This document shows positions 6,740 through 40,025 of a DNA stretch of 40,025 bases, in pieces. A program made the position numbers and the translations under genes. The stretch is taken from assembly GCA_051453625.1 (NCBI GenBank), contig JBOZIK010000001.1:26778655-26818679 (forward strand). Direction: 5' to 3'. Positions within the stretch are counted from its first letter, which is position 1; each line of letters opens with the position of its first letter. This DNA is from Welwitschia mirabilis (Eukaryota). Under the pieces are notes generated by a model. It did no database searches. It worked only from the letters and a program-made list of their open reading frames with translations, and had not been told where the DNA came from.

Positions 6740-6741
6740 GT

Positions 6742-9305: not shown

Positions 9306-9398
9306 GTACTTTTTCAATCTTGTACTATTTTTAAATCAGTTTGTACCGTCTACATATCTTGAAATGGATGTTATACTAATGTCTGAATTTATTGGTAG

Positions 9399-9470: not shown

Positions 9471-10020
9471 GTATGTATTATTTCTTCCACTTTTTAAAAA
9501 CTGTCAAGTTATCATGAGACCCTAGTTACCTTAATACTATGAATAAAAGTAATAGTTATTTCGACTAGTGGGTACGAAAAGATTATTGATATTGACTTGT
9601 AAAATTTTTAGGTATCGCAAATATCTTTGTAACCAAATTAGCTTTTGATTTTAACAAAACTTATTATGATCATCTATAATTGATAAGGAACAAGTCTATT
9701 GTATTTAGTGCACAGGTTAATGATGTTTCTGTAAATAGAAGCTGAGAGACATAGGAATTGAGGAACACATTGAAAATATACTTGTGAAATGCATAATTAC
9801 TGCAGAATCATTTTTTTGCCAAAAGATTCAAATTGTGGGAATCACAAAAATTGCGATGCTGAATTGTGTGAAGTATAGAAAATAAGAAAGTTCAATATTT
9901 CTCTGGCAAATTTTGATAGATATTGAATTTTGAATGATAAGTAAACCCCAAAAGAATATATAAGCATTGTTATAACCTATGAGACTAGTAATTATCACTT
10001 ACTAAAGTTTTTGAAGTATG

Positions 10021-10274
10021 TTTTTTTAATTTGTTCTATTTTTGCAGACGAGGCACCATGGACGGTGTTTCCTAACTGAAAACCTTTCGGCAACATTGTG
10101 CTGACCCACTTGGCAAGTACACGTGGTGTGCTAGTTGTCCCAAAAGGGGCGCGGCCACCGTGGACAATGCAAGTGAAGTCTACCTTGGTAAGGAATCAAA
10201 CCCACAACCATCCACTTGGCATGGCTATTCCAACTTTGGGGGTTTGAGCTAACCAATCATATCACCTGCCTGCC
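10021..10274 (-). mobile_element. Probable tRNA-derived SINE
   Basis: - strand: A-box-like TGATATGATTGG (10264-10253), B-box-like GGTTTGATTCC (10202-10192), GC-richer body, A-rich tail (+ strand T-rich 10021-10044). No TSD recognised. Confidence 0.5.
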
Positions 10275-10559
10275 TTAGTTAAGAGAGTTAAAGAATTTAA
10301 AGTGGTGGACACCATACAATTTTTACAGTCCTAAACAAAATATAAAGTACAACATACACATTTTCTCAAAAATATCAGTCTTATATAAAATGTTAGATCA
10401 GGTGTTTGTATTCCAATAACACTTTTGTGAAAAAGAATGTAGCTGTACAATACAATTGTCAGTTTATCACAATCATCATGTCCAAAATCTCAAAAACTAT
10501 GAATAATACAACTTGGATACTGCATACTAGGTGTACTACAAAAGATTGATGACTTCTAG

Positions 10560-13320
10560 ATCCTTTCCTCCATGAGGTTGAAGCTTGGCAATCTGAATTT
10601 GCCTAGCTTCTTCCTTTGCACTCATTTGCTCCTTCACGAGTGATCTCTTGAGCTCCTTAATATCAGTTGGTGTTAGGTTGGGCATCTTGCGATAACATCT
10701 CACACTACATATGTAGTGACTCGGATCTGCAAGGCTACGACTGGGAGTAGAACAATGATGCTTTACTCCTACATCACATTAGAACATAGACATACACATT
10801 CTATCATGAGAAGTGTTTAAGAAGACGTTTGTTTTCCTTTTTAAAAGCTTTTAAAATTCTCTGATAGGAAATTCTGACATCTGACATCTGAGATCTTTAT
10901 TACATCCTTGGGAGTCCAAAAAGGTCCATTGCATAGAAAATCATTGTACAAGGCCTTTTATAGATCACGTACATGGTACTTATGACTTTCAAATGCTTTG
11001 TTGATAAGGTATCTTCGTTTGATGGATCCCATTTGGAAAAAATCAAATAGATAGATTGGGCTACAATAGCATATGCATTCCTAATAGACTCGCTTCAATG
11101 AGCAAAAATGAAATATATGTTCTTCATCTTCTAACTCACTTTGCTTATAGAATCTGCACGTCTTGTTTTCCTTGGGCATATTAACCCATGGTTCTGTTTC
11201 TATTAGCAAATGATGAGACCCCATTCTTGCTCTAGCAGTACTTGCTTCTCAATTTTGTCTTTAATATTCAAAGGGAAGGAAGTCAGATCTTGCTCTTGGA
11301 TATTCCACTTTCCAACCCCTGCTTTGCTTGGTGAAACCATCCTTTTTGATGGGTAGCATGAAGAACCTAATTGGGTAAATGTGTACCTGGATGAATTAGC
11401 ATTTTTTGGTAAAAAGTTATAAACTGAAACAATGCTTCGATCTAAAAGGGCATTAAGTCTGCTTCCATTAACAAAGTATCATACTGTGTTTGGTTTTTGA
11501 CTTTAAGCTTTTGAACCAGAAACTGTTTTTGGACACACTCCAACCTCTTCCATAAAGTTGCAGGAAGCCTTGGACACAATGACACAAAACCATACAAAAG
11601 CACTAGTTGCACAGGATGACAAAATAGTTGTTGCAAAGCTCACAAGCCTAAGTATTCTCTTTGTTACATTTAGTGGAGAAAGCAATCAAGGCATGCATTC
11701 CAGCTGACGCCCCCTTTTTTGGGTCCAATTATATGTGATTAAGAAAGTAACCCCTAAGTACTTATAAAACTCAATAATCTCAATTTGCTTGTTCCCAGTG
11801 CAGAAATTGTAGCTTTGGTTTCGAGTTCCATACATCATAATCTCAGTGTTGTTTGCATTGACACTCATCCTTAAGTACACAAAAAAGTTGTCTTAAATCT
11901 GCAACAGACTCTGTAGTCTTTCAGGTGATGGTGCAATCGAGACGATGTCATTAGCAAATAAAGTGCATTCATTGGAGTTTGCGCAATTAACATTGAATTT
12001 TCCCTAGTGCTCTGCATCCACTGCTCTAATTCATCAATGAAAATACCAAATAAAATAGTAGAAAGTGGGCAACCTTGCTTCACCTGTATGTGATTGTGCA
12101 AAATAACTTTATCCTGAGTACCTCAATCCTCAGATCATAAGCTTTAGAAAAAATCTATAAAACACAGATATAGTTTTTTTGTGGGATCTTTGGCTCACGT
12201 AATATAGTGCCTAAGAGTAATTAAATGTTCAATTGTGGAATGATGTTCCCTAAAACCTGCTTGAGTGATAGCTTGAACATGGTTCTTTTCAGCCGAAGTA
12301 TCAAGTCTTTTCTCCAAAATTGTGCTTAGTAACTTTGAGAAGATATTGCTCACCACAATGAATCTGTAGTTATTAAGGCCTTTTTTTAGCATCTCCCTTT
12401 TTGAACAACATAACTGTTTTGCTAATGGACTAGCTTTTAGGAAAACCAAACTGAATACCTCCATTGTGGAACTTCCAATGTGCTGTCCCTACAGTGGGTC
12501 CATCCACTTTGATAGCTCCACATATAACCCTAAAGCATCAACAACCTTTCCTGTTGCCAATCCACTAACACTTGCTTTGATTTCTTCATATGAAAACTGA
12601 ATTGATGCCATTGTCACTGCAGGGGATTGGGAAGAATTGAAATGATTAAGAGACAACGAAAGAGATCCACAATATCTGGGAATGGAAAACTCTAGTCCTG
12701 TTTATCCTTCTTTTGCACCATCTTTCAAAAGTTACTGGGATTCTTTTTAATCATGTGGAGCAATGTTAGTTGACGATCTCTAATAAATTTTCTGTTTTTT
12801 AAGACCAAAGAAGATATTTATATTCTTCAAGAGCTCTAGAATTAATAACAGAAGATCTTAAGGACAATCTATGTTCCTTGCAGTCGGCATCAAACCAAGG
12901 ATGCTTCCCTTCATTATTCTTAGAAGCAGCAAGGTTGCGTACAGCTTTCAACATCACGTGATGAAGGTTCCTACTATGCTCTCTGCTCTCCCATAATCTA
13001 TCAGTTTCTTCCTCATAGTGGTGTTGGTAATCATTAGTAAGTCTGTATGTCCTCTGTTGCCACAGAAATCGTTTCTTCTGGCAGATAGATTTGATAGCAA
13101 AACTAAGACAATGATGAGGTGATTCAACCATATTTTACCCTATTTGAAGCTGAGGAAATTATAAAGGGTAAAAGCCATGAAGACATCTTAAAGAATACAT
13201 GCCTCCACTATGAGCATTCTATAGTCATAGAAGATCTCTCAATTCAGACTGAGAAGAAGGCATATTAGCAATCTATTCCTCATCATAAAAATACGTATTA
13301 AAAGATCATTTATACTATTA
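10560..13320 (-). mobile_element. Decayed non-LTR retrotransposon ORF2 (RTE/RTEX-like, apparently not L1); ends approximate
   Basis: HPWFDADCKEHR, NNYRFIVVSNIFSKLLSTILEKRL, QAGFREHHSTIEHLITL, QVKQGCPLSTILFGIFID, YKYLGVTF occur in the correct order, with many stops and frameshifts. Confidence 0.85.
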
Positions 13321-13867
13321 TGACATCAAACTGTAAAAATTCTACACAGCAAAGATGATGGAAACAAGGAGATACATGAATTAGATCAAGATGAATGTTC
13401 AAAGAAGGTGATAAATTTTGATCCATGGAGTGAAAACTCTAATCCAAACTTTGCTAGAAGTTATTTTAGGGGGATGGGGGTGGGTGTTGGAGCTGACGAT
13501 ATCAGTTAGGGGGGTAATGACAAGATGCATGCTTACAACTACAAAGAATCACAAACTTGATGGAGTCTGAGCGTACTGGACCTTGGTCAGCTTCAATACA
13601 TCAGCTTATCCGCTCACATTCATTTATTACATTATTTATTTTCTACATTTCCCTCTACTGCTATGTCTCTAAAAATTCTAAATTTCCACTGTTTATACTT
13701 GAGTTCTAGCCAGCTTCGATTAATTTAAGCTTGTTAAGGTGCTTTTGTTCTTTACTTTTATCTTTTTAAATTTGGAAAATGATATTTGATATTATTTGTC
13801 CTTTATATGCCACTTTGTTTTTGACATAATTTTGAATTGTCATTTTGTCCAAACTAAACTTGCATAG

Positions 13868-13936
13868 ACATTGGCTGGTATATTTGGAGCTTCGATGGAT
13901 GAGTTGGCACGTTGTCCAGGAATTGGTGAACGGAAG
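13868..13936 (+). CDS. ERCC1: ERCC1 exon (69 nt), second HhH motif
   Basis: catag|TLAGIFGASMDELARCPGIGERK|gtattg; LARCPGIGERK is the plant ERCC1 signature. Confidence 0.95.
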
Positions 13937-15089
13937 GTATTGTTTCAATGCTTTGTTATTGTTGAGTTGAGTTCCTTCACCATTTAATACATCAAATTTA
14001 ATACCTAGCAAATTTGTATTCTTTTTCTTCTATCTAATACTGTTCATGTAAGTTGATGTTTTACATTCTAAAATAATTTTCTCCTATTATATTATATTGC
14101 AGACCATTAAGAATGCATTACAGGATGCTAGCATTCTATGAACAGAATTAGTATGATGAGTTTACCATTTGACGAGAATTTTGACAATGATTAACAAACT
14201 GAATTAATTTTTGTTAGAAAATTTAATTATCAATCTTACTATTTTATTTGAAAACAGCCTACTTAATTTGAAAGACTTTCATTACTCATTAAGGTCTACT
14301 TGTGGTATCCTATATGTAAAGCGTCAAGGTTTTTTGTTTTCCAACATTGGGTTTAGTGCTCTTTGCAGTCGAGCATACAGCACATGCCAGGAAGATCTCT
14401 TAAAAACATGTGGGCTTCATCATGCCTGAGAGATTTATAACGGATGTTAAGAATCCTGGTTACTTGTCTGTTACCACAAGAAATATGCCGAGTGTTTGCA
14501 AAAAGTTATTATAATAGCAAAGAATGGATAGTTTTTTCCTTCCCCCTTTCTTCTTGACAAATCCCAGCTATGTTTTGGCTATCAAGTGCTTTTTTTAAAT
14601 GTATTTCACTTTTGTTCATAAGTGATTTGTTCTTGTCGTAGGATTTCATCCAATACAGAATTAAGACAGATGAAATGACTAAAATGCTCTATGCTTGATC
14701 ATAGTCTATTCATTTTGATACAATACTATTTTGGCTCTTTTGATGAAAGTTCTTTCCCAAGGAACACTACTACTTTCAGCTTTGCTAATGTGATGTCTTT
14801 TTCTGTCTTCCTATTTGTGTGTTTAGGACAATATTTCATTTTCTTAAGTTGGTAGGCATTGGAGTAAAACCTCAATACAACCAGATTTTAAACAGGACAT
14901 TTCAGTATGTTGGTCAAATTGTTGTTTCATGTGTTAAATATGTTGCAAGTGATTTTCTAGTGAGAAGCCAATTTTCAAGCCTGGCAATGTGTTGCAAGGT
15001 CAACAATTGTTGAAATTGCCCATTTTGGGCTTGTTTGGACCTTATGCTTCATCACAACCTTCCTAGGGGATGGTTCACATCTGTCCCTC

Positions 15090-15560
15090 TTTTGTCTCTT
15101 GACATTCTGGCATTGTGCTCCAACAAACATGCAAAAACGAAAAATCAAGTTTGATTTTTAGCCTGAGTTTTAATTGATTGACATCAATATATCTTGGAAT
15201 TTGACATTTAGGTTGGAGAGAACTATAAATACCCCATTCTTGATGCACTTTAGGATCACACACTCACACACACCACACGACAACAACTCCTCCTCCTCAT
15301 CTTGCTGCAGCATTTAGGGAATAAGTGTAAGTGATTTCAATTGTAGTCTTTATTCACAAGCAGAAATAATTAATTTATCATTTTAACTACTGAATTCACT
15401 TAGCTACACCAGCCTTTGTTTCCCAACATTCACATTTTACTGCTTTCCCAACCTACCACACTGCCTTTTGCCTCCCATTTCTTGGAGAGGACTCTCAAAT
15501 TTCACCGCTCTTCCGTTTAGCACTAGAAAAATGGCCTCCTTTGTGATTCTGATTTCCAGC
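15090..15560 (-). mobile_element. Possible L1 ORF1 relic (DUF4283 / zinc-knuckle-like)
   Basis: Weak frameshifted motifs AIFLV..RVLSKKW, KCQIPRYIDV, RFCMFV(G)EHNARM. Very decayed. Confidence 0.3.
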
Positions 15561-16111
15561 AATCTATACGGTTACAAACGCTGGGAAAACTTTTCATCTT
15601 AAAAATTATAGCTCTTGTTGTCACTTTGCCAAGAGTTTTTTCGTGCTTAATCATATTTCAATGTTCATATCACTTAAAAACACCTTTAACTTGCCAACTT
15701 TGCATGATTTTAGCTTCATTCGCTTTTCAGTGCACCCTTATCATTTTCATTAATTTTCTTTTAATCTTAGCCTTGTTATTATCAATGGTAGCTCAAGCTG
15801 AGTCTTGGTCCTTGTAATCCTTCTATAATACTTTTGGTATAAAATTTGATGGGCTTGTTTGTAATTGTGCTTTCTTGCACGTAGATGAGGTTCTTGATTG
15901 CATCTCCCATATGGAAGTGTTGAAGTTTGAATCTTCTCATAAGCTTTATAGAATATAGTCATCTAAACTTGCTTGGGTCAAGGATGGGTCTTCAGTGTGA
16001 TATACATGAAAACCTTTGCTTAGTTGTTAATAAATAGGGTTAATGGTAAGGCATTTGTCGTCGTGCATGTACGTGTGTTTTTCAGTGTAGGACCAAGGGC
16101 ACCATAAGGCC

Positions 16112-17043
16112 TGTTGGGCCCTTTACCATTACACCAAAAGCCATGACTTAGGTAGAAATTGGAACCCTTTATATTTATCCACTCGTCGGGCTGGGCATGG
16201 GGACTGTATACCTAACAATCTTCCCCTTGATCCACATGCCAAGGGCTCACATGAACCCGGAAGCCACTGGGGAGACTTGAACCCGAGACCAACTAACAGC
16301 CATAGCTCTGATACCAAGTGTTGAGCCCTTTACCATCACACCAAAAGCTATGATTTAGGTGGAAACTGAAACCCTTTATATTTACCCACTTGTCTGGCTG
16401 GGCCTGGGGAGCGCATACCCAACAATCTCCCCCTTGATCCACATGCCAAGTGCTCACATGAACCAGGAAGCCACCGGGGAGACTCGAACCCGAGATCAGC
16501 CAACAACCATGGCTCTGATACTAATTGTTGGGCCCTTTACCATCACACCCAAAAGTCATGACTTAGGTGGAAACTGGAGCTTACCCACTTGTCGGGCTGG
16601 GCATGAGGAGAACATGCTCAACAATCTCCCCCTTGATCCACATGCCAAGTGCTCACATGAACCGGGAAGCCACCGGAGAGACTTGAATGCGAGACCAGCC
16701 AACAACCATGGCTTTGATACCAGTTGTTGGGCCCTTTACTATCATGCCAACAACCATGGCTCTGATACCAATTGTTGGGCCCTTTACGATCACGCCAAAA
16801 GCCATGTCTTAGGTGGAAACTGGTACCCTTTATATATACCCACTTGTCGCACTGGGCATGGGGACCACATACCCAACAATCTCCCCCTCAATCCACATGC
16901 CAGGTGCTCACATGAACCGGGAAGCCATCGGGGAGACTGGAACCTGAGACCAGCCAACAACCATGGCTCTGATACCAATTATTGGGCCCATTACCATCAC
17001 ACCAAAAGTCATGGCTTTTGGTGTAATGCTAAAGGGCCCAACA
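16112..17043 (-). mobile_element. Tandem-array TRIM (terminal-repeat retrotransposon in miniature), unit about 207 bp
   Basis: LTRs TGTT...AACA at 16112-16217, 16319-16424, 16526-16623, a truncated unit 16725-16772, 16773-16878, and a fold-back LTR 16980-17043. The 101-bp internal regions carry a tRNA-iMet PBS (gctctgatacca, e.g. 16305-16316) and a PPT (atctcccccttg on +). Flanked by AAGGCC at 16106-16111 and 17044-17049. Confidence 0.95.
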
Positions 17044-18865
17044 AAGGCCTAGGTCCTGCATGACCAATTTTACAATAGCAAATGATGTTAATCAAATAAT
17101 TAGTGATGCTATTTGTTGATAAATTAAGTCAGTACTTATAATATGTGTTAGATTATCTTTGGTTATTCCTTATGTATAACATTGTATCGTGAAAATCTGT
17201 AAATATGAAAAAGCCTGTTGCTTAGTAACACATACACGGCAGTAGGCATGGCTAGAAGGCAAAACATACAAAAAAAACCTTTAAGGCTTCTATTTCTTTT
17301 TCAGTTTTCCAATGCCTTTCGGTTTAGGAGCATTACAAATTTGGGGTTTTGTATGAGACCATAGGTAATTGGGGACACTGCCATTCTCAGCCCCATACCT
17401 TTTTTCTCCTTGGTGGGTGGTCTTCCCAACCTCTCCATCATGTTATACTTTTGTAAGCGAACATTACTTTTCCAAAAGTGCTTCATTTCATATGTTCAGA
17501 CACACATAATTCCATTTCAGATTAACCTGTACGTGTTATTCTTGAAGGGTCCCTTAAAGGTCAACTTGCATGATGTATCTGAAATGGTAAATGGCATTTT
17601 AAAACCAGAAAAGGTGTGTAACGCCTGACCACTGGATCTTGGTATCATTGAAAATGACTAAGTTTACAAAGAAACAAAAAGGCTACGAGAACTAAAAATT
17701 GTTTTAAGAAATAATACTTTAAAAAAATTTTGTTCCTGGTAAACCACTTTAAAATTATAGTGAAGTATAAGAAAATGAGTATTCAACACTTTAAAGGAAA
17801 ATAAATAAGGTTTTGCCATAGAGTTTGCCCTTTTTCTTTGCCAATTAGGTAGATTCAACCTTGAAAATAGTTCTAGAGGGAAACCTGAGTGAAAGTGCTA
17901 GAGGCAGGCTGTAGGCAGGTGTAGGAGGTGGACTGCACATTGGTGAGTGCTACAAATCCCTGTTGACCTATTATGGTGGGCTTAAGGTATGCTACTAATG
18001 CCAATGTGTCTGAAGGGTGCCACTAGGTTCTGGCAGTGCCACGCCAGTGTTGGCAATTTTGATGGAGGTTTGATGGTGCCAACTGTGTAAGGATTCTGAA
18101 TCACGATCGTGAGTATTGCGTAGTCTGTTTGGTCGTCATTATGACTTAAAATATAGACGATTATCCATGGATGTTATTTTACTTACCATGTGGCATGAGG
18201 CATACTTACGTTTTTCTTATGACAATTTCTTCTATGTATCTGGAAAATTGAGCAAGTTTTGTTTGTCCAATCCTGCTCCAGATGATTGAATTCTTCGAGT
18301 GTCTGTAGAGATTATTTTCCAAGGATACTTTTTTTGTAATTTTGTTTTGCAATATTACAGTATAATGAGCCTACAACTCATAACATTTCTATGCTATTTC
18401 ATTTAATATAAAATTAAGCTATGTTTTAACATATTTCATTAACATCTTGAGGCACAAGTATACCCATACGTGGAATTCTTTTTAAGTGAGCTCTATAACT
18501 ATGGCCTGTTTGTTCCATGAGAATAAAATGAGAAATGTTCTCAAATCAATATTCTACTATTGCAAAAGTGAAAGGATGTTCTCTCAAATACATGAAAGGA
18601 TAGATGGGTTAACAGTAGAATCTGCAACTTCACTTTGGTGATGTTATAGCCATCATAAGGTTAATATCATATGTGAGCTTTAGCTTAACCGGATTAAGAT
18701 AAGCAGAGGTTGATAATGATTGGAATGAATGCTGCCTATATAATCACTGAATTATCTCTTTATCTGACAAATTATTGATTGAACAGCAGTTTTATACGTT
18801 ATCTCATTTGATTACGTAGAGTTATGTTTTGATGTATTAACTTATTGGAATGCTGCTATTTTCAG

Positions 18866-23029: not shown

Positions 23030-24610
23030 TAACTAAAAGCTCCTCCATGCAATTCAAGATAAAGTTCCATTCAATTCTATTGTAAGTTTTGGCATAATCA
23101 ATTCTAATGAAGGTGATATCTTGATTAGTATCCTTTTCTCATGCCAAATTTTTCGAAGTAGATACAACATTATTAAGAACATATCAAGCTTTAACAAAAC
23201 CACTCTTCTCAATACAAATGATACTCAGTAGGATAGTCCTCAACTTGTTATATTTAGTTAAAGTTTTCTAAGAGACATTGAGTAGACTACCCAATGTCTA
23301 ATTGAATTGGAATGCAAATCACTTGATTTTAGCAAAAGATAGATAACACCTTGATTAAGCTTGGGACCTAAGTTGCCTTCATGCAAGGCTTTCTAAACTA
23401 CCCTAAAGCAGTCCTTTCTAATAAAATCTCAAAGATTTTCATAAAATTCTATGGAAAAACTATCCATTCTTAGAGTCTTACCATTAGCCATGTCAAAGAG
23501 TTTCTTTTAACTCATCTTTCTCTAAAATTTGATGATAGGAGTTCTAAAACTTTTTGGGGAATGAAGTTAGTATTTCAATGAAAGATATGTTGATGAAAAC
23601 CATGCAGTTTGAAGAACTTAGTAAAATTTATAGCTTAACAACTAAGAGGGTTGAGGATCAAAGTGTAAATTGCCATTAAATTCAAGTCTATCTAATTGAG
23701 GAGAAACAGAGCTTCTCTTAACAAATTTGAAAAATTCTTTACAACTGGCATCATGAATGTTAAGCTAAGAAACTCTAGTTTTAATTGCAAAACTTTTAGC
23801 AAAATACATTTTCTAGAAATTTAAACAATTTTTATTTTTTGAAAACTACTTATGGAGGTGATGGTTAAAAGGATCTCATTATATAGTTGTAGAAAATGAT
23901 GACATATGCTATTGAATGTTCTTTTCCCGGTTTAGTAGCCATTTGTTTATTAACATTTCTAGAATAATTTTGCATATCATATATAGCATCATGGAATCCA
24001 TCTAGTATTACCACTTGGCTGAGGCTTTGTGCTCCATAACCTTTGCAAAATAGTTTTTTTTTTCATTTAGAATTATAATCATTTCCATGTGATCTAAAGA
24101 GAAAAGAATGGTATAGCCACATGCCTGAATTCAATCTACAAACAAATGTCAAATGATCTAATAATAAGTAATTCTTACAACCTCTAATAAAAGCATTTTG
24201 ATTCTAGAAAGAGATAAAAGAAAAATAAAATCTATCAAAGGCATTGAAGAATAATGCATAGGCAACTATATTAATAAGAAAAATATATAAAATTCCTATT
24301 TTGATGCCTTTCATGATGATCTCTTCTTTATGAGTAAGAGTACAATCACCTAGTCTAAATATAATATGAATTCCTCCATTTGATGAATCACTAATACATA
24401 ATAAAATTTTTCTCAAGTTAATGCATGATTAATTAAAGCTAAGTTTTTGTAATTTGGCCTTAGTAACCTTCGTAAATATGGTCTGTTAAAGTTTGTTATA
24501 TTTGTGTCAATGCTAATGCATAATAGTAGAAGCTTGGAGGAAGGAATTCTATAATTGGCATAGGGCCTTTGCAAGATATCTTTTCAACATTGAATGTAGT
24601 TATTTCTTTT
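23030..24610 (-). mobile_element. Decayed L1-clade LINE ORF2 (endonuclease plus N-half of RT), 3' truncated
   Basis: ITTFNV, FSLDH, MANGKTLRMDSFSIEFY, LNQGVIYLL, EKSGFVK..YVLNNV, IRIDYAKTYNRIEWNFI on the - strand. Confidence 0.8.
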
Positions 24611-29625: not shown

Positions 29626-31902
29626 ATAACAAGAAGAATAAATTAGTAAAGTAACTAGTTTAAGGTTACAAATATCATGTTTTGTAATCATTTTCACTAA
29701 TTAAGTCTTCATATTAATTACTATTGAATCATTATTATGAATGACTAATAGCGAATATTTATTATTAAACTAAGTAATATAGGACTTAACTCAAAACTCT
29801 AGTATGCTAATAGGCCAATGCCATCATCCAAACCCATGAAACCATTGTACTTTTAGAAAATAGTGGAAACCATAAACATGATCATAAAGATTGTCTACTA
29901 ATTAAAAAATTTTGATTAAAAAATATTTAAGAGAATGAAATATTATAAAACTTGTAAATAAATAATAAGGATAAAATTGACTAATCTTGATTTTTGTCAT
30001 GCTAAATGTATTTAAAATATTAAAGAAGTTAATTTGATGTAAAATCCTAGCCTTACTCTTATCTAAAGAATACTTATTCTTAGAGTNNNNNNNNNNNNNN
30101 NNNNNNNNNNNNNNNNNNNNNNNNNNNNNNNNNNNNNNNNNNNNNNNNNNNNNNNNNNNNNNNNNNNNNNNNNNNNNNNNNNNNNNNNNNNNNNNNNNNN
30201 NNNNNNNNNNNNNNNNNNNNNNNNNNNNNNNNNNNNNNNNNNNNNNNNNNNNNNNNNNNNNNNNNNNNNNNNNNNNNNNNNNNNNNNNNNNNNNNNNNNN
30301 NNNNNNNNNNNNNNNNNNNNNNNNNNNNNNNNNNNNNNNNNNNNNNNNNNNNNNNNNNNNNNNNNNNNNNNNNNNNNNNNNNNNNNNNNNNNNNNNNNNN
30401 NNNNNNNNNNNNNNNNNNNNNNNNNNNNNNNNNNNNNNNNNNNNNNNNNNNNNNNNNNNNNNNNNNNNNNNNNNNNNNNNNNNNNNNNNNNNNNNNNNNN
30501 NNNNNNNNNNNNNNNNNNNNNNNNNNNNNNNNNNNNNNNNNNNNNNNNNNNNNNNNNNNNNNNNNNNNNNNNNNNNNNNNNNNNNNNNNNNNAATACTTA
30601 TTCTTAGAGTTAAACATCTTTAATTACATTTTTTTTATTTATCATTGAATTTCATCATTACACTTATTATAATTCTAATTCCTCCATATCCCTTGATTCC
30701 ATTATAGCTTTTATAAGTAGCAAAAGGGATTATCTTATTGTGAGGTTTTAAATCCCTTTATTCTTTCCTGAGCATGCAGAAATGAATATTTCATAAGGAA
30801 AAACTCTTGCAAAGGATATGAGAAATTTTGTACTTGATTAGTAGTGATGCGATTTTACATTATTAGTTAATAAAATTTGATCTCTAATTGGTATTTCATT
30901 TTTTGGTCCAACATTGATATATTTAATAACTTGTAATGGAATAAAAATCTTAAATATTCTTTTGATTATAAATATTTGAGTATGGTTTATTTAACAATTG
31001 TTAGGTTTGTATATTAAGATGATTGATATGTGAGATCTATGAAATCTTGAATGTTTTTTCTTTACTACAAGTTTTTTTTCCCTCCCTTTTTTAACAACAT
31101 TTTAAATCTACAATAAATGATCGATTTATTACCCACAAAACCCTTGTTATTAATGTTGGGTTGATAAAATAACAACAATTCTTGTAATTTCTTTATTTAG
31201 GATTTGTTGGTTAGTTTTCCATTTTGACAACCTTTTCTAGTGCTTAGGAGGAGCACTATTCATCTATTGTTATGTCTCTGCCTTCAAAAACATTACATTT
31301 TAATTGTTTTCATTTTGAATAAATGATTAAAAATAGTGAACACTAGATCTTCCTTAGAATCCTTCTGTAAGAATGAAGACGAGGAATTCCTTATACTATA
31401 ACTAGTAGCCTAGATTTTCTCTTTTAAAAGACTACTATCCTTTACCTTGAAAGATATGGTATATTTTCACAAAAAGGAAACATATTCTATAGTAAAAACG
31501 TTTCAGGGCAATTTTTTGAATATCATTTATGAAGGTATAGAAATGATGACCATAAGAAAGTTTTCTAGTTTATTCATTTTGAAAATTAACTCTTAACTTT
31601 TTTAGTAACAGTATCTATTGAAAATTAATTATACTCATAAGACCACTCATTATGAGTAGCCATATATAATAATGCACTTGAGTTGATAATCCAAAAATTC
31701 CCATTAATGTCTTTTTTTTTTTGAAAAAAGGTATGTATATTAAACTAGGAAATTTACATCAAGGGTGAAAACGCCTGGGAATAATAGGTTATTAAACTGT
31801 TTATAAAAGGGGAGTACTCTAATAGCTGGTAAAGAGGGACTTGAGCAATAGGCCGAAATGGGGGTAAAACTGACCCTTGACGACATAGTCATGGAAATAT
31901 GC

Positions 31903-32592
31903 CTATCTAGTATAGTAAAACACATGTAGAAAATGAACCAAAAAAGAGCATAGAACTGTTGATAGATAGGGGTGAAAACGCTCCTTCAGACCAGAAGTTA
32001 TACAAAACTCAGTTTTAGAGGGGAATAGACCTGAAGGGGGAGGATTACAATCCTCTATAAAATGGAAACATGTTACCATGGTTATGTTCAAGGAGAAATC
32101 TTCCAAATAATCAAAGAGGACTTCAAATGCTTGATTTATCTCTTTAAATTCTTTAGCACCTACTGGATTTTTGTCTGGGTGTAGCTAAACATCTTTCTTC
32201 ATGTAGCTCGATTTTATGGCCTAGAGTAGGGCTCTGTGTGAGAGCCTCAGTGTGATAAAGGAATACCTCTTCAGCCCCTAAATGGTTGCCAGCAATACCT
32301 CCCATCTAGCTGTGTTCATATCGATGTCCTCTTAAGGTTGAGATCATATTTCCACTGACGAAGAATCAGAAGTGGAGTTCAGTGGAGAGCTAGGGCCCAA
32401 GGCTAGAGTAAGGGAGGGTTGAGCATGTTTACCTTGCTCCTGAGTGTTGGGTAATGATTGTTCTTGAGCCAGATCCTGGACTATGCTAGAAAAGTGTTCC
32501 TCAGTTATCTTTTGTTGGGCCGAGGATGAAGACGACTCCCTTAAATGACTTGGGGATGAAGGCACCCCTCTCTTGCTAGGGCTATCATGCAT
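31903..32592 (-). pseudogene. L1-borne ORF3: Ser/Pro/Gln-rich region plus DnaJ J-domain (32265-32110); five premature stops; 3' end uncertain
   Basis: One frame from ATG 32592: MHDSPSKRGVP...SSVEI*SQP*EDIDMNTARWEVLLATI*GLKRYSFITLRLSHRALL*AIKSSYMKKDV*LHPDKNPVGAKEFKEINQAFEVLFDYLEDF. HPD is at 32181-32173. Confidence 0.85.
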
Positions 32593-33430
32593 AGCAGTTT
32601 CCTCTGGAATAAGGTTTCTATTAGGAGAGGTTATTCTTGTAGAAGTTTTCTTAAGGGAAGTCTGATAAGGATGATGATGGGGTTTTGCAGGGAGAGGAGG
32701 GGCTTCTCTTGCCTTAACTTCTTGTGCTGGTCTTCAAAGAGCCAAGATTAATCCTAAGTTCCTTGAGGAATCCTTCTGTTTAAGAACTTGGATGAAAAAG
32801 AATGGCAGATTCATCTAACATCCAAGTTAAGAGCTTTAAGGAAAGAAAAATGNNNNNNNNNNNNNNNNNNNNNNNNNNNNNNNNNNNNNNNNNNNNNNNN
32901 NNNNNNNNNNNNNNNNNNNNNNNNNNNNNNNNNNNNNNNNNNNNNNNNNNNNAGCAGTGGAGTTCTGTGGAGAGCGAGGGCCTAAGGCTAGAGGAGGGGA
33001 GGGTTAAGCATGTTTACCTTGCACCTGAGTGTTGGGTAATGATTGTTCTTGAGCCAGATCCTGGACTGTGCTAGAAACGTATTCCTCAGTTATCTTTTAT
33101 TGGGCCGAGGGTGAAGACGACTCTCTTAAATAACTTGGGGATGAAGGCACCCCTTCTTGCTAGGGCTATCATGCATAGCAGTTTCCTCTGGAATAGGGTT
33201 TCTATTAGGAGAGGTTATTCTTGTAGAAGTTTTCTTAAGGGAAGTCTGGTAAGGACGATGACGGGGTTTTGGAGGGGGAGGAGGGACTTCTCTTACCTTA
33301 GCTTCTTATGCTGGTCTTCAAAGAGCTAAGATTAATCCTAAGTTCCTTGAGGAATCCTTCTGTTTAAGAACTTGGATGAAAAAAAATGGCAGATTCACCT
33401 AATATCNNNNNNNNNNAGAAAAATGAATAT
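32363..33430. repeat. Diverged duplicate (about 32363-32852 and 32953-33430) either side of a 100-N gap
   Basis: Same sequence order with scattered substitutions and small indels. Confidence 0.9.
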
Positions 33431-36400
33431 CTGAAAGCTTAGAGTAATTCCCTGATTGGATGAAGTAATGGTCTACGAGTTCTTCACCTAGTCCCCAAGG
33501 AGGCGGTAATGCCTTCCTACTGATCTACTCGTTGGGCAATTTATGAACCCCACCAAAGAAAAAGTGGAGAGCTTCGTGTTACTGTCTGCTTCCAAAAAAA
33601 ATCTTCTTGCTTTCTGCAGGAATCTCCTGCAGCTTGGAGAGGGAGTCTTCAGAGATTTCTATTAGAGTTCTTTAGAAAGTGGTGTGTCCTTCTNNNNNNN
33701 NNNNNNNNNNNNNNNNNNNNNNNNNNNNNNNNNNNNNNNNNNNNNNNNNNNNNNNNNNNNNNNNNNNNNNNNNNNNNNNNNNNNNNNNNNNNNNNNNNNN
33801 NNNNNNNNNNNNNNNNNNNNNNNNNNNNNNNNNNNNNNNNNNNNNNNNNNNNNNNNNNNNNNNNNNNNNNNNNNNNNNNNNNNNNNNNNNNNNNNNNNNN
33901 NNNNNNNNNNNNNNNNNNNNNNNNNNNNNNNNNNNNNNNNNNNNNNNNNNNNNNNNNNNNNNNNNNNNNNNNNNNNNNNNNNNNNNNNNNNNNNNNNNNN
34001 NNNNNNNNNNNNNNNNNNNNNNNNNNNNNNNNNNNNNNNNNNNNNNNNNNNNNNNNNNNNNNNNNNNNNNNNNNNNNNNNNNNNNNNNNNNNNNNNNNNN
34101 NNNNNNNNNNNNNNNNNNNNNNNNNNNNNNNNNNNNNNNNNNNNNNNNNNNNNNNNNNNNNNNNNNNNNNNNNNNNNNNNNNNNNNNNNNNNNNNNNNNN
34201 NNNNNNNNNNNNNNNNNNNNNNNNNNNNNNNNNNNNNNNNNNNNNNNNNNNNNNNNNNNNNNNNNNNNNNNNNNNNNNNNNNNNNNNNNNNNNNNNNNNN
34301 NNNNNNNNNNNNNNNNNNNNNNNNNNNNNNNNNNNNNNNNNNNNNNNNNNNNNNNNNNNNNNNNNNNNNNNNNNNNNNNNNNNNNNNNNNNNNNNNNNNN
34401 NNNNNNNNNNNNNNNNNNNNNNNNNNNNNNNNNNNNNNNNNNNNNNNNNNNNNNNNNNNNNNNNNNNNNNNNNNNNNNNNNNNNNNNNNNNNNNNNNNNN
34501 NNNNNNNNNNNNNNNNNNNNNNNNNNNNNNNNNNNNNNNNNNNNNNNNNNNNNNNNNNNNNNNNNNNNNNNNNGAGTTGTTGGCGAGCTGTGCTGAGAAG
34601 CTTCCTTAGATAGGAATCCCCATGATCAATTGTCCAATCTCTGTATTTGTAATTAATCAAATCACACCAAGGTTGACCTTCTTCTTGTAGGTTCTTTAGG
34701 ACTCTATGAGCTCCAGTGAGGATATAATATTTAGGTTTTTGAATCCCCCAACCTCCTGATTCCTTTAGATGGGTAATAATCTCCTATTTACAGAGATGAA
34801 TTTGATGGTGATCCTTTCCTCATGACCAAATAAAGTCTTGTAATATCCTATTGATTTTTCATATGATATTTCTTGAGAGGACGATAACAGAAGTTATGTA
34901 CCAGAAGGATGAGATTAAGCAAGAGTTTATGAGAATTATTTTAGACTTTGAGGAGAGAAAGTTATTTCATCATGATCTGCACTACCTTTAGATGAATTCC
35001 AATATTTAATTCCAGATATTTATCTTGTGTCAATTTCAAAGANNNNNNNNNNNNNNNNNNNNNNNNNNNNNNNNNNNNNNNNNNNNNNNNNNNNNNNNNN
35101 NNNNNNNNNNNNNNNNNNNNNNNNNNNNNNNNNNNNNNNNNNNNNNNNNNNNNNNNNNNNNNNNNNNNNNNNNNNNNNNNNNNNNNNNNNNNNNNNNNNN
35201 NNNNNNNNNNNNNNNNNNNNNNNNNNNNNNNNNNNNNNNNNNNNNNNNNNNNNNNNNNNNNNNNNNNNNNNNNNNNNNNNNNNNNNNNNNNNNNNNNNNN
35301 NNNNNNNNNNNNNNNNNNNNNNNNNNNNNNNNNNNNNNNNNNNNNNNNNNNNNNNNNNNNNNNNNNNNNNNNNNNNNNNNNNNNNNNNNNNNNNNNNNNN
35401 NNNNNNNNNNNNNNNNNNNNNNNNNNNNNNNNNNNNNNNNNNNNNNNNNNNNNNNNNNNNNNNNNNNNNNNNNNNNNNNNNNNNNNNNNNNNNNNNNNNN
35501 NNNNNNNNNNNNNNNNNNNNNNNNNNNNNNNNNNNNNNNNNNNNNNNNNNNNNNNNNNNNNNNNNNNNNNNNNNNNNNNNNNNNNNNNNNNNNNNTTCAA
35601 AGAGGAATACTCAGGTAGATATCCTGTAGATCTCCTAACTTTCTACTTAGGATTTAGGTGATTTCACCTCCTCTGATACATTTTCTACCCAAAGTGTGTA
35701 TTCTTGATTTATTCTAATTAGTGTGAATCCCTGTTACCTCTAAAAAGATGTTCATGGCATTTTTGATTACTTTTACTTGCTAACATAAAGCCTTAATCAT
35801 GATGATGGTTTCATCTGCATAGTGATTGTTGAGAAAGGTTTGGCCTCCAATTCTGATTCCTATAACTCCATTTCTTCTTAAGAAAACCTGTAACACTCTC
35901 ATCACAAATGGAAAAAGGTATGAAAATAGGGGATCCCCTTGTTTTAAACCTCTTCCCATTGAGAAGAAATTTAATCTAATGATTGTTAACCTCCACACTA
36001 AATTTAACACAATCCTGCATGTCTAGCCAAAGAATAATAATATCTTGATAAAAGCCTGTTTTTCTAAGAATACACATAAAGCTTATCAACTAAAAAAATT
36101 ATAAGATTTAGCAATATCTAATTTAGCAATAAGGAGAGGAAAAATTTGTATTTTTTAGTAGAGTGAATGATCTCATGAGTCAAGAGAATTTGATCTTAGA
36201 TATACTTGGATCAGATGAAGCCAACTTGGTTCTTTAAAATTACATTAGAAAGCAAAGGGGTGATTCGGCTAACCATGATTTTCGCAAAAATTTTGTAAAT
36301 GATGTTACAAATACCTAGAGGCCTAAAATCCTCTGGTTTGCTAGCATCTCTTTTTTTTCAGTATGAGTACCACTCTAGTTCTGTTCATCTCCCTAAAATC

Positions 36401-38512
36401 CATCTGTTGTGGAAGACTTCCTGCATTACATCATGAAGGTTATCCCCCAGGATGGAGAAGTGGAATTTGAAAAGTTCGATTGGATAACCATTAGGGATAG
36501 GGGCTTGGTTATTATTTATAGATCTAATAACAGATAAGATCTCTTCTCTATTCAGGGGTTTAGTCAATATATAATTATCTTCACTTGAGATTTTCTTATT
36601 TTCTGGATTAAAGCTGGGGGCGATATCATCCCATTCCAAGATTCTCTTAAGATGGACCTGCAATTCCTTAGCTATATCCTCTTCATTTTCTGTGATTTAA
36701 CCTCCTGTAGATAGTCTTTTGATTCTATTATTAGATATGTGCTGGTTAACNNNNNNNNNNNNNNNNNNNNNNNNNNNNNNNNNNNNNNNNNNNNNNNNNN
36801 NNNNNNNNNNNNNNNNNNNNNNNNNNNNNNNNNNNNNNNNNNNNNNNNNNATAAGGAGAGGAAATTTGTATTTTTTAACAGAGTGAATGATCTCATGAGT
36901 CAAGAGGATTTGGTCTTGGATATACCTGGTCGGATGAAGCTGGCTTGATTCTCTGAAATCACATTGGGAAGCAGGGGGGTGATTTGTTCAACCATGATTT
37001 TCGAAAAATTTTTGTAAATGATGTTACAAACACCTAGAGGCCTGAAATCCTTTGGCTTGCTAGCATCCCTTTTTTTTGGTATAAGTACCACCCTAGTTCT
37101 GTTTATTTCCCTAGGAATCCGTCTGTTGTGGAAGACTTCCTGCATTACGTCATGAAGGTTATCCCTTAGGATGGAGAAATGGGATTTGAAAAGTTCGACT
37201 GGCCAACCATCAAGGTCAGGGACTTGGTTAATCTTCATGGATCTGACAGCAGATAAGATCTCTTCTCTACTCAGAGGTTTAGTTAAGATATAATTATCTT
37301 CACTCGAGACTTCTTATTTTCTGGAATTAAGCTGGGGGCGATATCGTCCCATTCTCAAACTCTCTTAAGATGAGCCTGCAATTCCTTAGCTCTATCCTTT
37401 TTATTTTCTGTGATTTGACCTCCTACAGATAGTCTTCTGATCCTGTTGTTTGATTTGTGTTGGTTGGCCTTTTAGAAGAAGAATCTAGTATGTTTATCAC
37501 CCTCTTTTAGCCACTTGATCCTTGAGCGTCCTTTCTAATAATGTTCTTCATCATCATTTATTTCTTTGAGATACATTAGGCACTGATATTCTCTGCTCCA
37601 AAGACTGTCCTTGTTACCTCCCTCCTCCTACTTAGTTTGGACACTTTTAAGTTCCTTCTTAAGTTGAGCTTTTGATTCAAACCTCTCTTTATCTTTCCTT
37701 CTATAATCTCTTATGTGAGCCTTTAAGACATTGAGACCTCTGTATAGAAAAGTTATAGGTTGGGTTCCATCATACTGTGCCCATATTTTTTTCAACAGTA
37801 CTCTAGTTTCTGTCTCGTTAATTCAATACCATTCAATATGAACGTAGTTTTTGAGGAAGAGATTATCCCCATTCTGAGTTTAATAGGAAGGTAATCCGAG
37901 GTAATTATATTCAGACCACAGACTTTAAGTGGAAGTTTAGCTAGATCCTTCCTAGCCAGAACTCAAATCTTAGACATTATCAAATCTGTACTTGCTCTTC
38001 TATTCGACCACATGTATTTGCACCTAACAAGAGGGACGTCTGTAAGGGAGTATCTTACCAAAAAATCTATTAGTATTAAAGCACCTCTTCCAATTATCGC
38101 CCCCTAATTTTTCCCAGTGGTGAAAACATTGGTTGAAGTTACCCAGTATCCATCTAGATTTATCTACTATAGTCTTTTGAGCTTCTTCCAATATCGCAAC
38201 CTTGTCTTGATTGTGCTGTGAACTATAAATATTTATGATAGACTAGCCTTTATCTTAATGAGAATTGTGATATGGTTCTTATTGCTGTGAATTAGAACTA
38301 CCTCTTTTTTGGTAGAAGGCCACCAAAGTTTCCTTCAGCAGCAATGGTGAAAGATGTCCATTACCATCCTAGATTCATTTTTCCATATAATTTTTTTATC
38401 TTCATTTCCTATGAGCAAATTAAATCAATATTATATTGATTGATCAAATTTTGTAGATCTTTTTCTTGTAAGAGGACTCTAATTCCTTGTAATTACATGT
38501 GAGACAATTCAT
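32631..38512 (-). pseudogene. L1 ORF2 (AP endonuclease, reverse transcriptase), disrupted; 3' end inferred
   Basis: MNCLTCNYKEL start, RIKWLKEGDKHTRFF, PDLDGWPVELFK, LIPKKRDASKPKDFRPLGVCNIIYK, GRGLKQGDPL, NHYADET, YLSIPL, KESGGWGI. Probable stop RKLLQE* at 32633-32631. Confidence 0.85.
36131..37470. repeat. Diverged duplicate of L1 RT segment (about 36131-36750 and 36851-37470) either side of a 100-N gap
   Basis: Both start ataaggagagg and encode ..ELFK.HFSIL.DNLHDVMQEVFHNR; many substitutions. Confidence 0.9.
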
Positions 38513-39561
38513 TAGGGGTGTTTTCGTCCCTTTTTGAGTGCTTGTCCTTTCCTTAAGGTATCTTCGATAGTGGCTTGGGAGCTATTTGCAACTTTCTCTA
38601 TCGTTTCTCATTCTTGGAGGATTCTATTACTGGCCTTTCCTTTATTTGGGTTTTTAATTCATTGGGTTCATCATNNNNNNNNNNNNNNNNNNNNNNNNNN
38701 NNNNNNNNNNNNNNNNNNNNNNNNNNNNNNNNNNNNNNNNNNNNNNNNNNNNNNNNNNNNNNNNTAGGGAAAACATTAGTACTTTTTCAGTTTGTTCCTT
38801 GTTTTGCTTATGTTGACATATATTCTGATTGTGACCAGTTTTCTCAAACAAAGTGTAGGTTTTCTTTAGCTTTTCTTCAATATTAATCAGTCTTTTTCAA
38901 CATTCTTCTCGTAGGTAACCCAATCTTCTACAATGTAAACATTTCTTTTCAGGAGGAGCACATCTTTCAAAGAGGTGTTCTGATTTTTCATAAACTATNN
39001 NNNNNNNNNNNNNNNNNNNNNNNNNNNNNNNNNNNNNNNNNNNNNNNNNNNNNNNNNNNNNNNNNNNNNNNNNNNNNNNNNNNNNNNNNNNNNNNNNNNN
39101 NNNNNNNNNNNNNNNNNNNNNNNNNNNNNNNNNNNNNNNNNNNNNNNNNNNNNNNNNNNNNNNNNNNNNNNNNNNNNNNNNNNNNNNNNNNNNNNNNNNN
39201 NNNNNNNNNNNNNNNNNNNNNNNNNNNNNNNNNNNNNNNNNNNNNNNNNNNNNNNNNNNNNNNNNNNNNNNNNNNNNNNNNNNAAACCATGGTCCTCTTG
39301 CAATTATTTTGTCTTAATCTTATTCATTATCTAGTTGAAATAATACCAATCCTTCGGCATTGTAATACCATCAACTTTGCTAATCCCTGTCCATTTTGTA
39401 GCAACCCATTCATGGATCCGATCCAACCTTGGTCGAGGACCAGATGAGACAAACTTATCAGTTAATTTGTATTTGAACTTCTTCTCGATCTCACTATAGG
39501 AATCTTCATCGATGTCCAAAACAAGGGATTTCCCTTTCTTGGAGAACTGAGACTTCTCCAT
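38512..39561 (-). pseudogene. L1 ORF1 (DUF4283-like N-terminus), gapped
   Basis: MEKSQFSKKG...KFVSSGPRPRLDRIHEWVATKWTG..MPKDWYYF; ends KKGRKHP* with the TAA overlapping the ORF2 ATG. Confidence 0.8.
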
Positions 39562-40025
39562 ATTGGGGCCAAACCCCTAGAAAAAAACCCTAAAATCAAA
39601 CTAGAACTGCAAAATGAAAAAAATCCCATAACTTACCTAAAGAATGTCTGTCTTACAACTGAAATCGCCCCTACGCTCTATGACCAGGGACCGAAACCAC
39701 CCTCATTGGTCTGCGATCCTCCAAGACTTGCTCCCTCCTCTGCTCTAGGTCCGCTAAACCTCTTAACGCTAATGTCTAAATTTGAAATATCATATATAAA
39801 TTATCTTATTCTTTGTATTCATAATAATGATTAAATGTAAAAACATCATGATAGCTAAAGCATCTTTATTTTCTTTATGCATCTTAAGATATTGACAATC
39901 TCTTCTTATATGCCTCTTATTTCTTATAATACCAACAAATGACCTTGTTATTACAACTTACTTATTTGACCTACGTATTATTTCTTTGAATATTTTGCAT
40001 TTATTTTGATTTAAAAAAATCATGA

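What the first reader, a model, noticed from the sequence alone, without database searches (positions are those of the whole stretch)
31903..32592. L1 retrotransposon carrying a DnaJ J-domain as a third ORF
Seen: between ORF2 and the poly(A), inside the TSD and on the contig continuous with the tail, one frame encodes about 110 residues of mostly low-complexity linker and then a complete J-domain pattern (F.TL.L...A....IKSSY.K....LHPDKNP.GAKEFKEINQAFEVL.D). It has no introns or frameshifts. All five stops (TGA, TAA, 3 x TAG) are one C-to-T change from Arg or Gln codons, as expected from methyl-C decay after insertion. The ATG lies about 40 nt after the probable ORF2 stop. Known: J-domains recruit Hsp70 through HPD; polyomavirus T antigens carry one, and hepadnaviral RT activation uses Hsp40/Hsp70. 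I know of no J-domain ORF as a standard part of plant L1s. Inference: an L1 family encoding its own co-chaperone, perhaps for ORF2p folding or RNP assembly.
Basis: partly seen in the sequence, partly recalled or inferred. Interest (0 to 1): 0.9.

Follow-up and report, generated by a model that had tools for sequence, protein, structure and literature searches.

The report
Decayed J-domain in a LINE tail
A broken copy of an Hsp70 co-chaperone (J) domain lies in the tail of a LINE-type retrotransposon family present in very many copies, so the whole family carried it, but nothing yet shows that it ever worked for the element.

Summary
On the minus strand, 32110-32253 matches Pfam DnaJ above its cut-off (36.5 bits, E 5.4e-9). 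The HPD motif is intact, and 129 open low-complexity codons precede the domain in the same frame. Five in-frame stops interrupt it, and an A11 run follows at 31712-31722.

It is not a one-off capture. Contigs of two DNA runs give summed depth 3-61 on the flank. From the A-run through the J-domain and linker to 32852 they give 291-16,882, with about 5,000 contigs laid per run. T-rich, mutually unlike flanks start at 31712-31715.

Where most contigs differ from this copy inside the domain, 3 of 6 amino-acid changes give the residue commonest in five J-domain homologues. The ancestor was therefore probably a better J-domain, and this copy is a decayed relic.

What is not shown:
- Contiguity with the reverse transcriptase. 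The scaffold is a mosaic of diverged copies joined over N gaps.
- A target-site duplication, a start codon, an open frame in other copies, purifying selection, or expression.

No relative with this architecture was found among 1.84 billion protein representatives, and no paper describing a LINE-borne J-domain was found.

Verdict: a family-level captured module, most likely a passenger. A working co-chaperone ORF3 stays possible at about 0.2.

The parts
31712..31722 (-). A11 run, the 3' end of the repeat unit
   Evidence: Sequence. Contig homology stops here: loose ends 'before' 31712-31715 in 98+35 (X1) and 81+35+38 (X4) contigs are T-rich, with agreement of only 0.44-0.47.
31723..32109 (-). 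3' region after the J-domain. The J frame stays open to the TAG at 31905-31903. No domain was found here.
   Evidence: High summed contig depth. A 12-nt direct repeat lies at 31763-74 and 31970-81.
32110..32253 (-). J-domain relic (helix I end, helix II, HPD, helix III) with two internal stops
   Evidence: Pfam PF00226 36.5 bits, E 5.4e-9. PDB J-domains. Alignment.
32173..32181 (-). HPD motif codons, intact in this copy
32185..32346 (-). Stretch holding all five in-frame stops (32346-44, 32334-32, 32280-78, 32223-21, 32187-85)
   Evidence: Stops hit 5 of 8 stop-prone codons here against 0 of 10 in the linker, Fisher p 0.0065, post hoc.
32347..32733 (-). Linker: 129 stop-free codons in the J frame, low complexity, no homologue found
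   Evidence: The frame was open in 0.00125 of 20,000 mononucleotide shuffles; the other two frames have 6 and 12 stops. No database match to this part.
32734..32736 (-). In-frame TGA that closes the J frame upstream of the linker; present in both window copies
32811..32852 (-). Last 13 codons and TGA of the ORF2-like frame (stop at 32813-32811)
   Evidence: The same stop is in the second copy. At 32814 most contig depth has G, so the ATG overlapping the stop is private to this copy.
32953..33406 (-). Second, diverged copy of the linker and ORF2-like end, placed across a 100-N gap
   Evidence: 93.4% identity over 455 nt to 32368-32822. It has one stop and a 1-nt deletion in the J frame.
33417..33693 (-). 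Piece read by eye as the zinc-finger-like C-terminal part of LINE ORF2; statistically unsupported
   Evidence: By eye only. No Pfam hit at E<=10. No significant tblastn hit.
34586..34957 (-). L1 ORF2 region downstream of the RT
   Evidence: tblastn to Zingiber L1 ORF2 residues 757-879, E 1.5e-5 in a 3.4-kb search.
35600..37585 (-). L1 reverse-transcriptase region, present as two diverged partial copies around a gap
   Evidence: tblastn. Pfam RVT_1 31.2 bits against a cut-off of 29.6. 36851-37465 against 36129-36747 is 85.5% identical.
38900..39562 (-). ORF1-like region (plant-type DUF4283 and zinc knuckle by eye)
   Evidence: DUF4283 E 0.063, 13.4 bits, below its cut-off. Motifs by eye.

Best explanation
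An ancestral master copy of a plant-type L1 LINE family acquired a host-derived segment once. The segment encodes a low-complexity stretch followed by a canonical J-domain, in sense orientation between the end of ORF2 and the poly(A) tail. Every later copy inherited it, so it is now present in very many copies in this genome.

The copy in the window is a dead, probably 5'-truncated insertion whose J-domain has decayed to five stops. I judge the module most likely a passenger, meaning a captured gene fragment carried in the 3' region and not a protein the element needs.

Shown: the domain, its family-wide copy number, and the 3' end at the A-run. Inferred: single acquisition, attachment to the RT-bearing element, and passenger status.
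For: Domain:
- Pfam DnaJ scores above its cut-off.
- 16 of 16 PDB hits are J-domains.
- HPD is intact and the helix II/III residues are invariant.

Family level:
- 11 flank bins (31000-31681) have depth 2.8-23.8 in X1 and 4.3-61 in X4.
- All 19 bins from 31682 to 32852 have depth 312-16,882 in X1 and 291-11,366 in X4.
- 4,934 and 5,553 contigs were laid at 80% likeness or more, with up to 110 contigs per variant site.
- Among the 16 pieces listed of 10,645, six bridge the J-domain and the linker. Examples are X1 32126-32449 and 32252-32647, and X4 32193-32452.
- No major loose-end cluster at the ORF2-like stop appears among the 24 loose-end rows shown.

LINE-type 3' end: an A11 run, then T-rich flanks that disagree with one another.

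Ancestor better preserved than this copy:
- Most contig depth differs from the window at six amino-acid sites of the domain (32247, 32225, 32201, 32190, 32114, 32109). At three of them the commoner letter gives the residue held by 3 of 5 aligned homologues.
- Most contigs stop aligning between 32179 and 32190. Depth there falls from 1,451 to 253 in X1. Contigs with loose ends 'behind' 32184 (44 in X1, 37 in X4) carry a sense codon where this copy has its last stop.

L1 context: RT and post-RT homology lie upstream on the same strand, in 5'-to-3' order. Both window copies of the linker follow the same ORF2-like stop.

Passenger reading:
- The J frame is closed by a shared TGA at 32736-34.
- The ATG at 32814 is private to this copy.
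- The two linker copies differ neutrally: 4 synonymous against 23 non-synonymous changes, at codon positions 11/12/4.
- No stop position appears among the 40 variant rows shown, although sites 1-3 nt away do. This is a weak hint that the stops are widely shared.
- No protein with this architecture exists in 1.84 billion representatives.
Against: - The 129-codon linker is open in exactly the J frame. This is unlikely for random sequence of its composition (0.00125 of shuffles). Linker and domain were therefore once a single coding unit, which also fits a real ORF3.
- The position just behind ORF2 is where LINEs are known to fix useful domains (passages of PMC4686597).
- The family spans a wide range of divergence. 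Contigs at 99%+, 95-99%, 90-95% and under 90% likeness number 130, 544, 1,841 and 2,419 in X1. The module therefore persisted through a long period of activity.
- Only 40 of 458 variant rows were visible, so whether the stops are family-wide is not known.
- The RT and the J module never share a gap-free block. The piece between them (33417-33693) has no statistical match to LINE ORF2.
- Summed contig depth is not a copy number.
- The two DNA labels are not independent. An X4 contig spans this very insertion junction with 3 differences in 738 nt.
Confidence: 0.55

Rival explanations
1. One reading: the family encodes a working J-protein (linker plus C-terminal J-domain) as a third ORF. This protein recruits host Hsp70 to fold ORF2p or assemble the RNP, and the window holds a dead copy of it.
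For: - A canonical J-domain with intact HPD.
- The majority of family contigs are closer to J-domain homologues than this copy at 3 of 6 sites, and they lack its last stop.
- The linker frame is open beyond chance and in phase with the domain.
- The module is family-wide and lies where LINEs have fixed extra domains before (passages of PMC4686597 and PMC5203782).
- Among 14 clearly polymorphic sites of the putative ORF shown, 6 are synonymous. That is about 43% against roughly 28% expected, which is my own estimate, and it is not significant.
Against: - No start codon is established. The ATG at the ORF2 stop is private to this copy, and the next ATG (32592-90) lies 219 nt downstream.
- The shared TGA at 32736-34 closes the frame.
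- There is no sign of purifying selection between the two window copies.
- Stops are in excess in the J part, 5 of 8 stop-prone codons against 0 of 10 in the linker. This suggests the J part had been decaying for longer than this insertion.
- No intact homologue was found in any database searched.
Confidence: 0.22
2. The J-bearing unit is an independent, non-autonomous poly(A) retroposon derived from a J-protein transcript and mobilised in trans by LINEs. Scaffolding of repeat contigs merely placed it next to L1 pieces.
For: - Everything upstream of 32852 consists of short blocks (234-1,824 nt) joined by N gaps, with overlapping diverged duplicates at 93% and 85.5% identity.
- 33417-33693 has no significant LINE match.
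- The read lay ended at 32852, so a 5' boundary further upstream could not be seen.
Against: - All blocks lie on one strand in the canonical ORF1-EN-RT-tail order.
- Both linker copies follow the same short ORF2-like frame and stop.
- By eye, that frame continues a zinc-finger-like LINE motif.
- Depth stays high to 32852 with no prominent break.
Confidence: 0.12
3. One-off event: a single 3' transduction or processed pseudogene of a host J-protein gene at this locus only.
For: This is the usual way host sequence ends up behind an L1 (recalled knowledge). The copy here is decayed.
Against: The J-domain, linker and 3' region have summed depth 10 to 1,000 times that of the flank, from thousands of contigs at 80-99% likeness in both DNA runs.
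Confidence: 0.03

Closest known systems
Plant L1 elements with an added archaeal-like RNase H domain at the ORF2 C-terminus (Smyshlyaev et al. 2013; seen here only as cited in passages of PMC4686597 and PMC5203782)
   Same: A plant L1 lineage that fixed a foreign protein domain downstream of the RT, carried by the whole lineage.
   Different: The RNase H is in frame within ORF2 and reported as active. Here the domain is a J-domain, lies behind an ORF2-like stop, and is not shown to be open or active. The two Zingiber L1 proteins found with the RT piece carry RNase H and no DnaJ.
Insect R1 LINEs with a tobamovirus-like SF1 helicase domain at the ORF2 C-terminus (PMC4686597; abstract and passages read)
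   Same: An extra domain separated from LINE-specific sequence by a long spacer, at the 3' end of the coding region.
   Different: A different LINE clade, a different domain, and fusion to ORF2.
Phalaenopsis Ty3/Gypsy elements with an extra ORF encoding an AlkB-type RNA demethylase (PMC9289625; abstract and passages read)
   Same: A plant retrotransposon lineage with an additional ORF. A disordered N-terminal part precedes a C-terminal host-derived domain.
   Different: An LTR element, and its activity was shown in vitro. Here nothing functional is shown.
L1 3' transduction and L1-mediated chimeric retrocopies (recalled knowledge, no call)
   Same: Host sequence carried between the LINE body and the poly(A) tail.
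   Different: Those events are normally unique to a locus or limited to a few copies. This segment is family-wide.
J-domains of polyomavirus T antigens (recalled knowledge, no call)
   Same: A mobile or parasitic genome that carries its own HPD J-domain to use host Hsp70.
   Different: A viral protein with proven function and an N-terminal domain, with no sequence relationship tested.

Membership tests
J-domain (Pfam PF00226, DnaJ) | Profile match above the curated cut-off | tested here: met
   36.5 bits against a cut-off of 27.8, E 5.4e-9, profile positions 5-55 of 63. 16 PDB J-domain sequences at E<=0.01.
J-domain (Pfam PF00226, DnaJ) | HPD tripeptide between helices II and III | tested here: met
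   Codons 32181-32173 read H-P-D. They are invariant in the alignment with five homologues.
J-domain (Pfam PF00226, DnaJ) | Uninterrupted reading frame | tested here: not met
   Two stops lie inside the matched domain and three just upstream.
J-domain (Pfam PF00226, DnaJ) | Stimulates Hsp70 ATPase | not testable with these tools
   Needs a bench assay.
L1-clade LINE | Reverse transcriptase of LINE type upstream on the same strand | tested here: met
   RVT_1 31.2 bits against a cut-off of 29.6. tblastn to two Zingiber L1 ORF2 proteins over 37585-35600 and 34957-34586.
L1-clade LINE | RT and 3' module on one uninterrupted sequence | tested here: inconclusive
   Five N gaps lie between 32852 and the RT. 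The blocks are diverged family copies.
L1-clade LINE | Apurinic-type endonuclease and plant-type ORF1 | tested here: inconclusive
   No Pfam endonuclease hit. DUF4283 E 0.063, below its cut-off. Motifs seen by eye only.
L1-clade LINE | Poly(A) 3' end at many different insertion sites | tested here: met
   An A11 run. More than 130 contigs per DNA run diverge into unlike T-rich flanks at 31712-31715.
L1-clade LINE | Target-site duplication | tested here: not met
   The best candidate is 13 of 16, at chance level. The 5' end of this copy is not defined.
One-off 3' transduction or processed pseudogene | Segment confined to one or a few loci | tested here: not met
   Summed depth is 291-16,882 against a flank of 3-61. 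About 5,000 contigs were laid per run.
Element-encoded functional ORF3 | Start codon and open frame conserved across copies | tested here: inconclusive
   The ATG at 32814 is private to this copy. The ATG at 32592-90 is present in both window copies. The TGA at 32736-34 is shared. The state of the stops in other copies could not be seen.
Element-encoded functional ORF3 | Purifying selection on the frame | tested here: inconclusive
   Between the two window copies there are 4 synonymous and 23 non-synonymous changes, with no constraint. Of 14 polymorphic sites shown, 6 are synonymous, which is not significant. Too little data.

The most novel reading that the evidence does not exclude
A plant L1 lineage that encodes its own Hsp70 co-chaperone. 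This would be a third ORF, a disordered linker plus a C-terminal HPD J-domain, translated from the L1 RNA to bring host Hsp70 to ORF2p or the RNP. It would be the first retrotransposon-borne J-protein, and the window would hold a decayed copy.
Probability: 0.2. Interest if true: 0.85.

Novelty: new variant of a known kind. Interest (0 to 1): 0.55.

Why it matters
LINEs are known to gain domains at the 3' end of their coding region, such as RNase H in plants and a helicase in insects. I found no report of a J-domain in one. Five full-text searches returned nothing on this, and three papers on LINE or retrotransposon domain diversity contain no occurrence of 'DnaJ'.

If the module was ever translated, it would tie retrotransposon RNP assembly directly to the Hsp70 system, much as some viruses use their own J-domains. 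This could be tested with an HPD mutant.

If it is only a passenger, it is still a clear example of a captured host gene fragment amplified to very many copies by a LINE. It is also a warning for gene annotation, because J-domain 'genes' in this genome may be LINE tails.

Tried and rejected
- Word-indexed protein search with linker plus J: 191 candidates, none at E<=0.001.
- Full HMMER search of 1.84 billion representatives: 5 hits, all generic J-domains matching only residues 133-209, and nothing for the linker.
- RT piece against longer proteins, to look for ORF2 proteins carrying DnaJ: 2 hits among 149 candidates, both Zingiber L1 at 34-35% identity, without DnaJ.
- Metagenome contigs. The linker protein matched 545 pattern stretches, none confirmed. 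A 22-nt pattern over the HPD region gave 0 matches.
- Whole genome: not held.
- Earlier findings of this scan: nothing by place, sequence or words.
- Other copies inside the window: only the linker duplicate.
- RNA:
  - No RNA holder was listed.
  - Only 77 and 40 reads were laid from two RNA runs, and 68 and 38 of them were under 90% alike.
  - They peak on the conserved helix and come from other loci.
- Pfam on the piece I read by eye as the zinc-finger part of ORF2: nothing at E<=10.
- Sensitive tblastn over the same piece: only chance-level hits.
- TSD search: chance level.
- Idea of an overlapping stop/start (ATGA) coupling ORF2 to ORF3: rejected, because most contig depth has G at 32814.
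- Host lineage from the copia integrase: the best hits are only 40-56% identical and spread over angiosperms, a fern and oomycetes, so it is unresolved.
- Rfam over 30593-33693: one hit far below its gathering score (22 against 54 bits), taken as chance.
- Supplementary tables of PMC5203782, which list per-species L1 domains, could not be opened and might list DnaJ hits.

Full report
**What is there.**
- On the minus strand, the frame starting at 32733 reads 129 stop-free codons of S/P/T/Q-rich sequence (32347-32733). A J-domain follows in the same frame.
- Read through with X at the stops, the stretch matches Pfam DnaJ (PF00226) at 36.5 bits, E 5.4e-9, against a cut-off of 27.8. The match covers profile positions 5-55 of 63, which is window 32110-32253.
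- phmmer against PDB sequences gives 16 distinct hits at E<=0.01, all J-domain proteins. The best is dnj-12 at 1.4e-7.
- HPD is intact (32181-32173). In an alignment with five homologues, eleven columns including HPD are invariant.
- Five in-frame stops lie between 32346 and 32185.
- An A11 run follows at 31712-31722, and the block 30593-32852 has no N.

**Claims that do not hold.**
- The remark about C-to-T stops is true of any stop codon and carries no information.
- The TSD is not confirmed. The best candidate is 13 of 16, which I estimate at chance level.
- The 'ORF2 stop 40 nt before the ATG' is the fourth stop of the ORF2-like frame. That frame first closes at TGA 32813-32811 in both window copies.

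**Surroundings.**
- LINE coding sequence lies upstream on the same strand:
  - RT homology to two Zingiber L1 ORF2 proteins lies at 37585-35600.
  - Post-RT homology lies at 34957-34586.
  - Pfam RVT_1 scores 31.2 bits.
  - An ORF1-like region has a sub-threshold DUF4283 hit.
- Everything above 32852 is made of short blocks joined by N gaps.
- Neighbouring blocks overlap in content but differ in sequence. 32368-32822 against 32953-33406 is 93.4% identical. 36851-37465 against 36129-36747 is 85.5% identical.
- The 'element' is therefore a scaffold-level mosaic of different family copies.
- The only sequence certain for this locus is 31712-32852: the ORF2-like end, linker, J-domain and tail.
- The piece 33417-33693 looks to me like the zinc-finger part of plant LINE ORF2. 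It has no Pfam or tblastn support.

**Is it family-wide?**
- I laid Logan contigs of two DNA runs and raw reads of two RNA runs on 31000-32852 at 80% likeness or more.
- The 11 flank bins have summed depth 2.8-23.8 (X1) and 4.3-61 (X4).
- All 19 bins from 31682 to 32852 have depth 312-16,882 (X1) and 291-11,366 (X4).
- 4,934 and 5,553 contigs were laid, most of them 80-95% alike.
- At 31712-31715, more than 130 contigs per run run off into T-rich sequence with agreement of only 0.44-0.47. These are many different insertion sites behind an A-tail.
- Listed contigs bridge the J-domain and the linker, for example 32126-32449 and 32252-32647.
- This excludes a one-off transduction.
- Two caveats apply. 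Summed depth is not a copy number. The two organism labels are not independent, because an X4 contig covers this very junction with 3 differences in 738 nt.

**State of the domain in the family.**
- Only 40 of 458 variant rows were shown.
- Inside the domain, most contig depth differs from the window at six amino-acid sites. At three of them (32201, 32190, 32114) the commoner letter gives the residue held by 3 of 5 homologues.
- Two further majority differences are synonymous (32179, 32143).
- Most contigs stop aligning between 32179 and 32190. Those with loose ends behind 32184 (44 in X1, 37 in X4) carry a sense codon where this copy has its last stop.
- The ancestor was therefore a better J-domain than this copy.
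- No shown row falls on any stop codon or on the TGA at 32736-34, although rows 1-4 nt away are shown. This is a weak hint that some stops are shared.

**Is it an ORF3?**
- For:
  - The linker is open in exactly the J frame, which occurred in 0.00125 of 20,000 shuffles.
  - The other two frames have 6 and 12 stops.
  - Linker and domain were therefore once one coding unit.
- Against:
  - The ATG that overlaps the ORF2-like stop is private to this copy, since most contig depth has G at 32814.
  - A TGA at 32736-34 is shared by both window copies.
  - The next ATG lies 219 nt after the ORF2-like stop.
  - The two linker copies differ at 31 sites with no synonymous excess. Of the 27 inside the frame, 4 are synonymous and 23 are not.
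- Unexplained: stops hit 5 of 8 stop-prone codons in the J part but 0 of 10 in the linker (Fisher p 0.0065, post hoc).
- RNA reads are few (77 and 40), mostly under 90% alike, and come from other loci.

**Origin and relatives.**
- No protein with the linker-plus-J architecture was found. The word-indexed search gave none, and the full HMMER search gave 5 generic J-domains.
- The closest L1 ORF2 proteins found carry RNase H and no DnaJ.
- Two metagenome scans found nothing.
- The host lineage could not be placed from the copia integrase.

**Literature.**
- Five full-text searches returned no LINE-encoded J-domain.
- PMC5203782, a survey of L1 domains in 503 genomes, has no occurrence of 'DnaJ' in its main text (passages read). 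Its supplements could not be opened.
- There are precedents for domain gain by retrotransposons:
  - RNase H in plant L1 (cited in PMC4686597 and PMC5203782).
  - A helicase in insect R1 (PMC4686597, abstract and passages).
  - An AlkB ORF in orchid Gypsy elements (PMC9289625, abstract and passages).

**Verdict.**
- The stretch is a real but decayed J-domain, carried family-wide in the 3' region of a plant-type L1 family.
- Captured passenger is the most likely reading (0.55).
- A once-functional co-chaperone ORF3 is at 0.22, an independent retroposon misjoined by scaffolding at 0.12, and a one-off event at 0.03.
- It is a new variant of a known kind. A census of copies in the full genome would settle it.

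Noticed in passing
window 32953-40025: The scaffold here is a mosaic of short blocks (234-1,824 nt) from diverged copies of the same LINE family. Content is duplicated around N gaps at 93.4% and 85.5% identity. This looks like an assembly artefact, not a real tandem duplication.
   Followed up: partly
window 32103-32174: RNA reads of both RNA runs carry variants (32120, 32121) found in only 1-3 DNA contigs. Their loose ends agree almost perfectly (0.96-1.0). This points to a transcribed low-copy relative of the J segment, either embedded in a gene or a separate J-like gene.
   Followed up: partly
window 32185-32733: All five stops cluster in the 54 codons at and just before the J-domain. The 129 linker codons, which hold ten Gln codons, have none (Fisher p 0.0065, post hoc). 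No explanation was found.
   Followed up: partly
window 3056-6092 (minus): A Ty1/copia-type element fragment with open gag-like, integrase (256 aa, 4333-5103) and RT (3056-4018) frames. The best database relatives of the integrase are only 40-56% identical.
   Followed up: partly
window 16112-16999: A GC-rich tandem repeat with periods of 207 and 255 nt, 2-3 copies, 85% matches. It contains a 234-codon open frame (16359-17063) that is probably just the repeat.
   Followed up: no
window 12195-13134 and 23046-23288 (minus): Further LINE RT-like fragments. The first was seen by eye in the ORF list. The second is a weak tblastn hit to the Zingiber L1 ORF2, E 1.5e-4.
   Followed up: no
window 32040-32291 (minus): A sub-threshold Rfam match to a retroviral packaging-signal model (22 bits against a gathering score of 54, E 0.038). 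Taken as chance.
   Followed up: no
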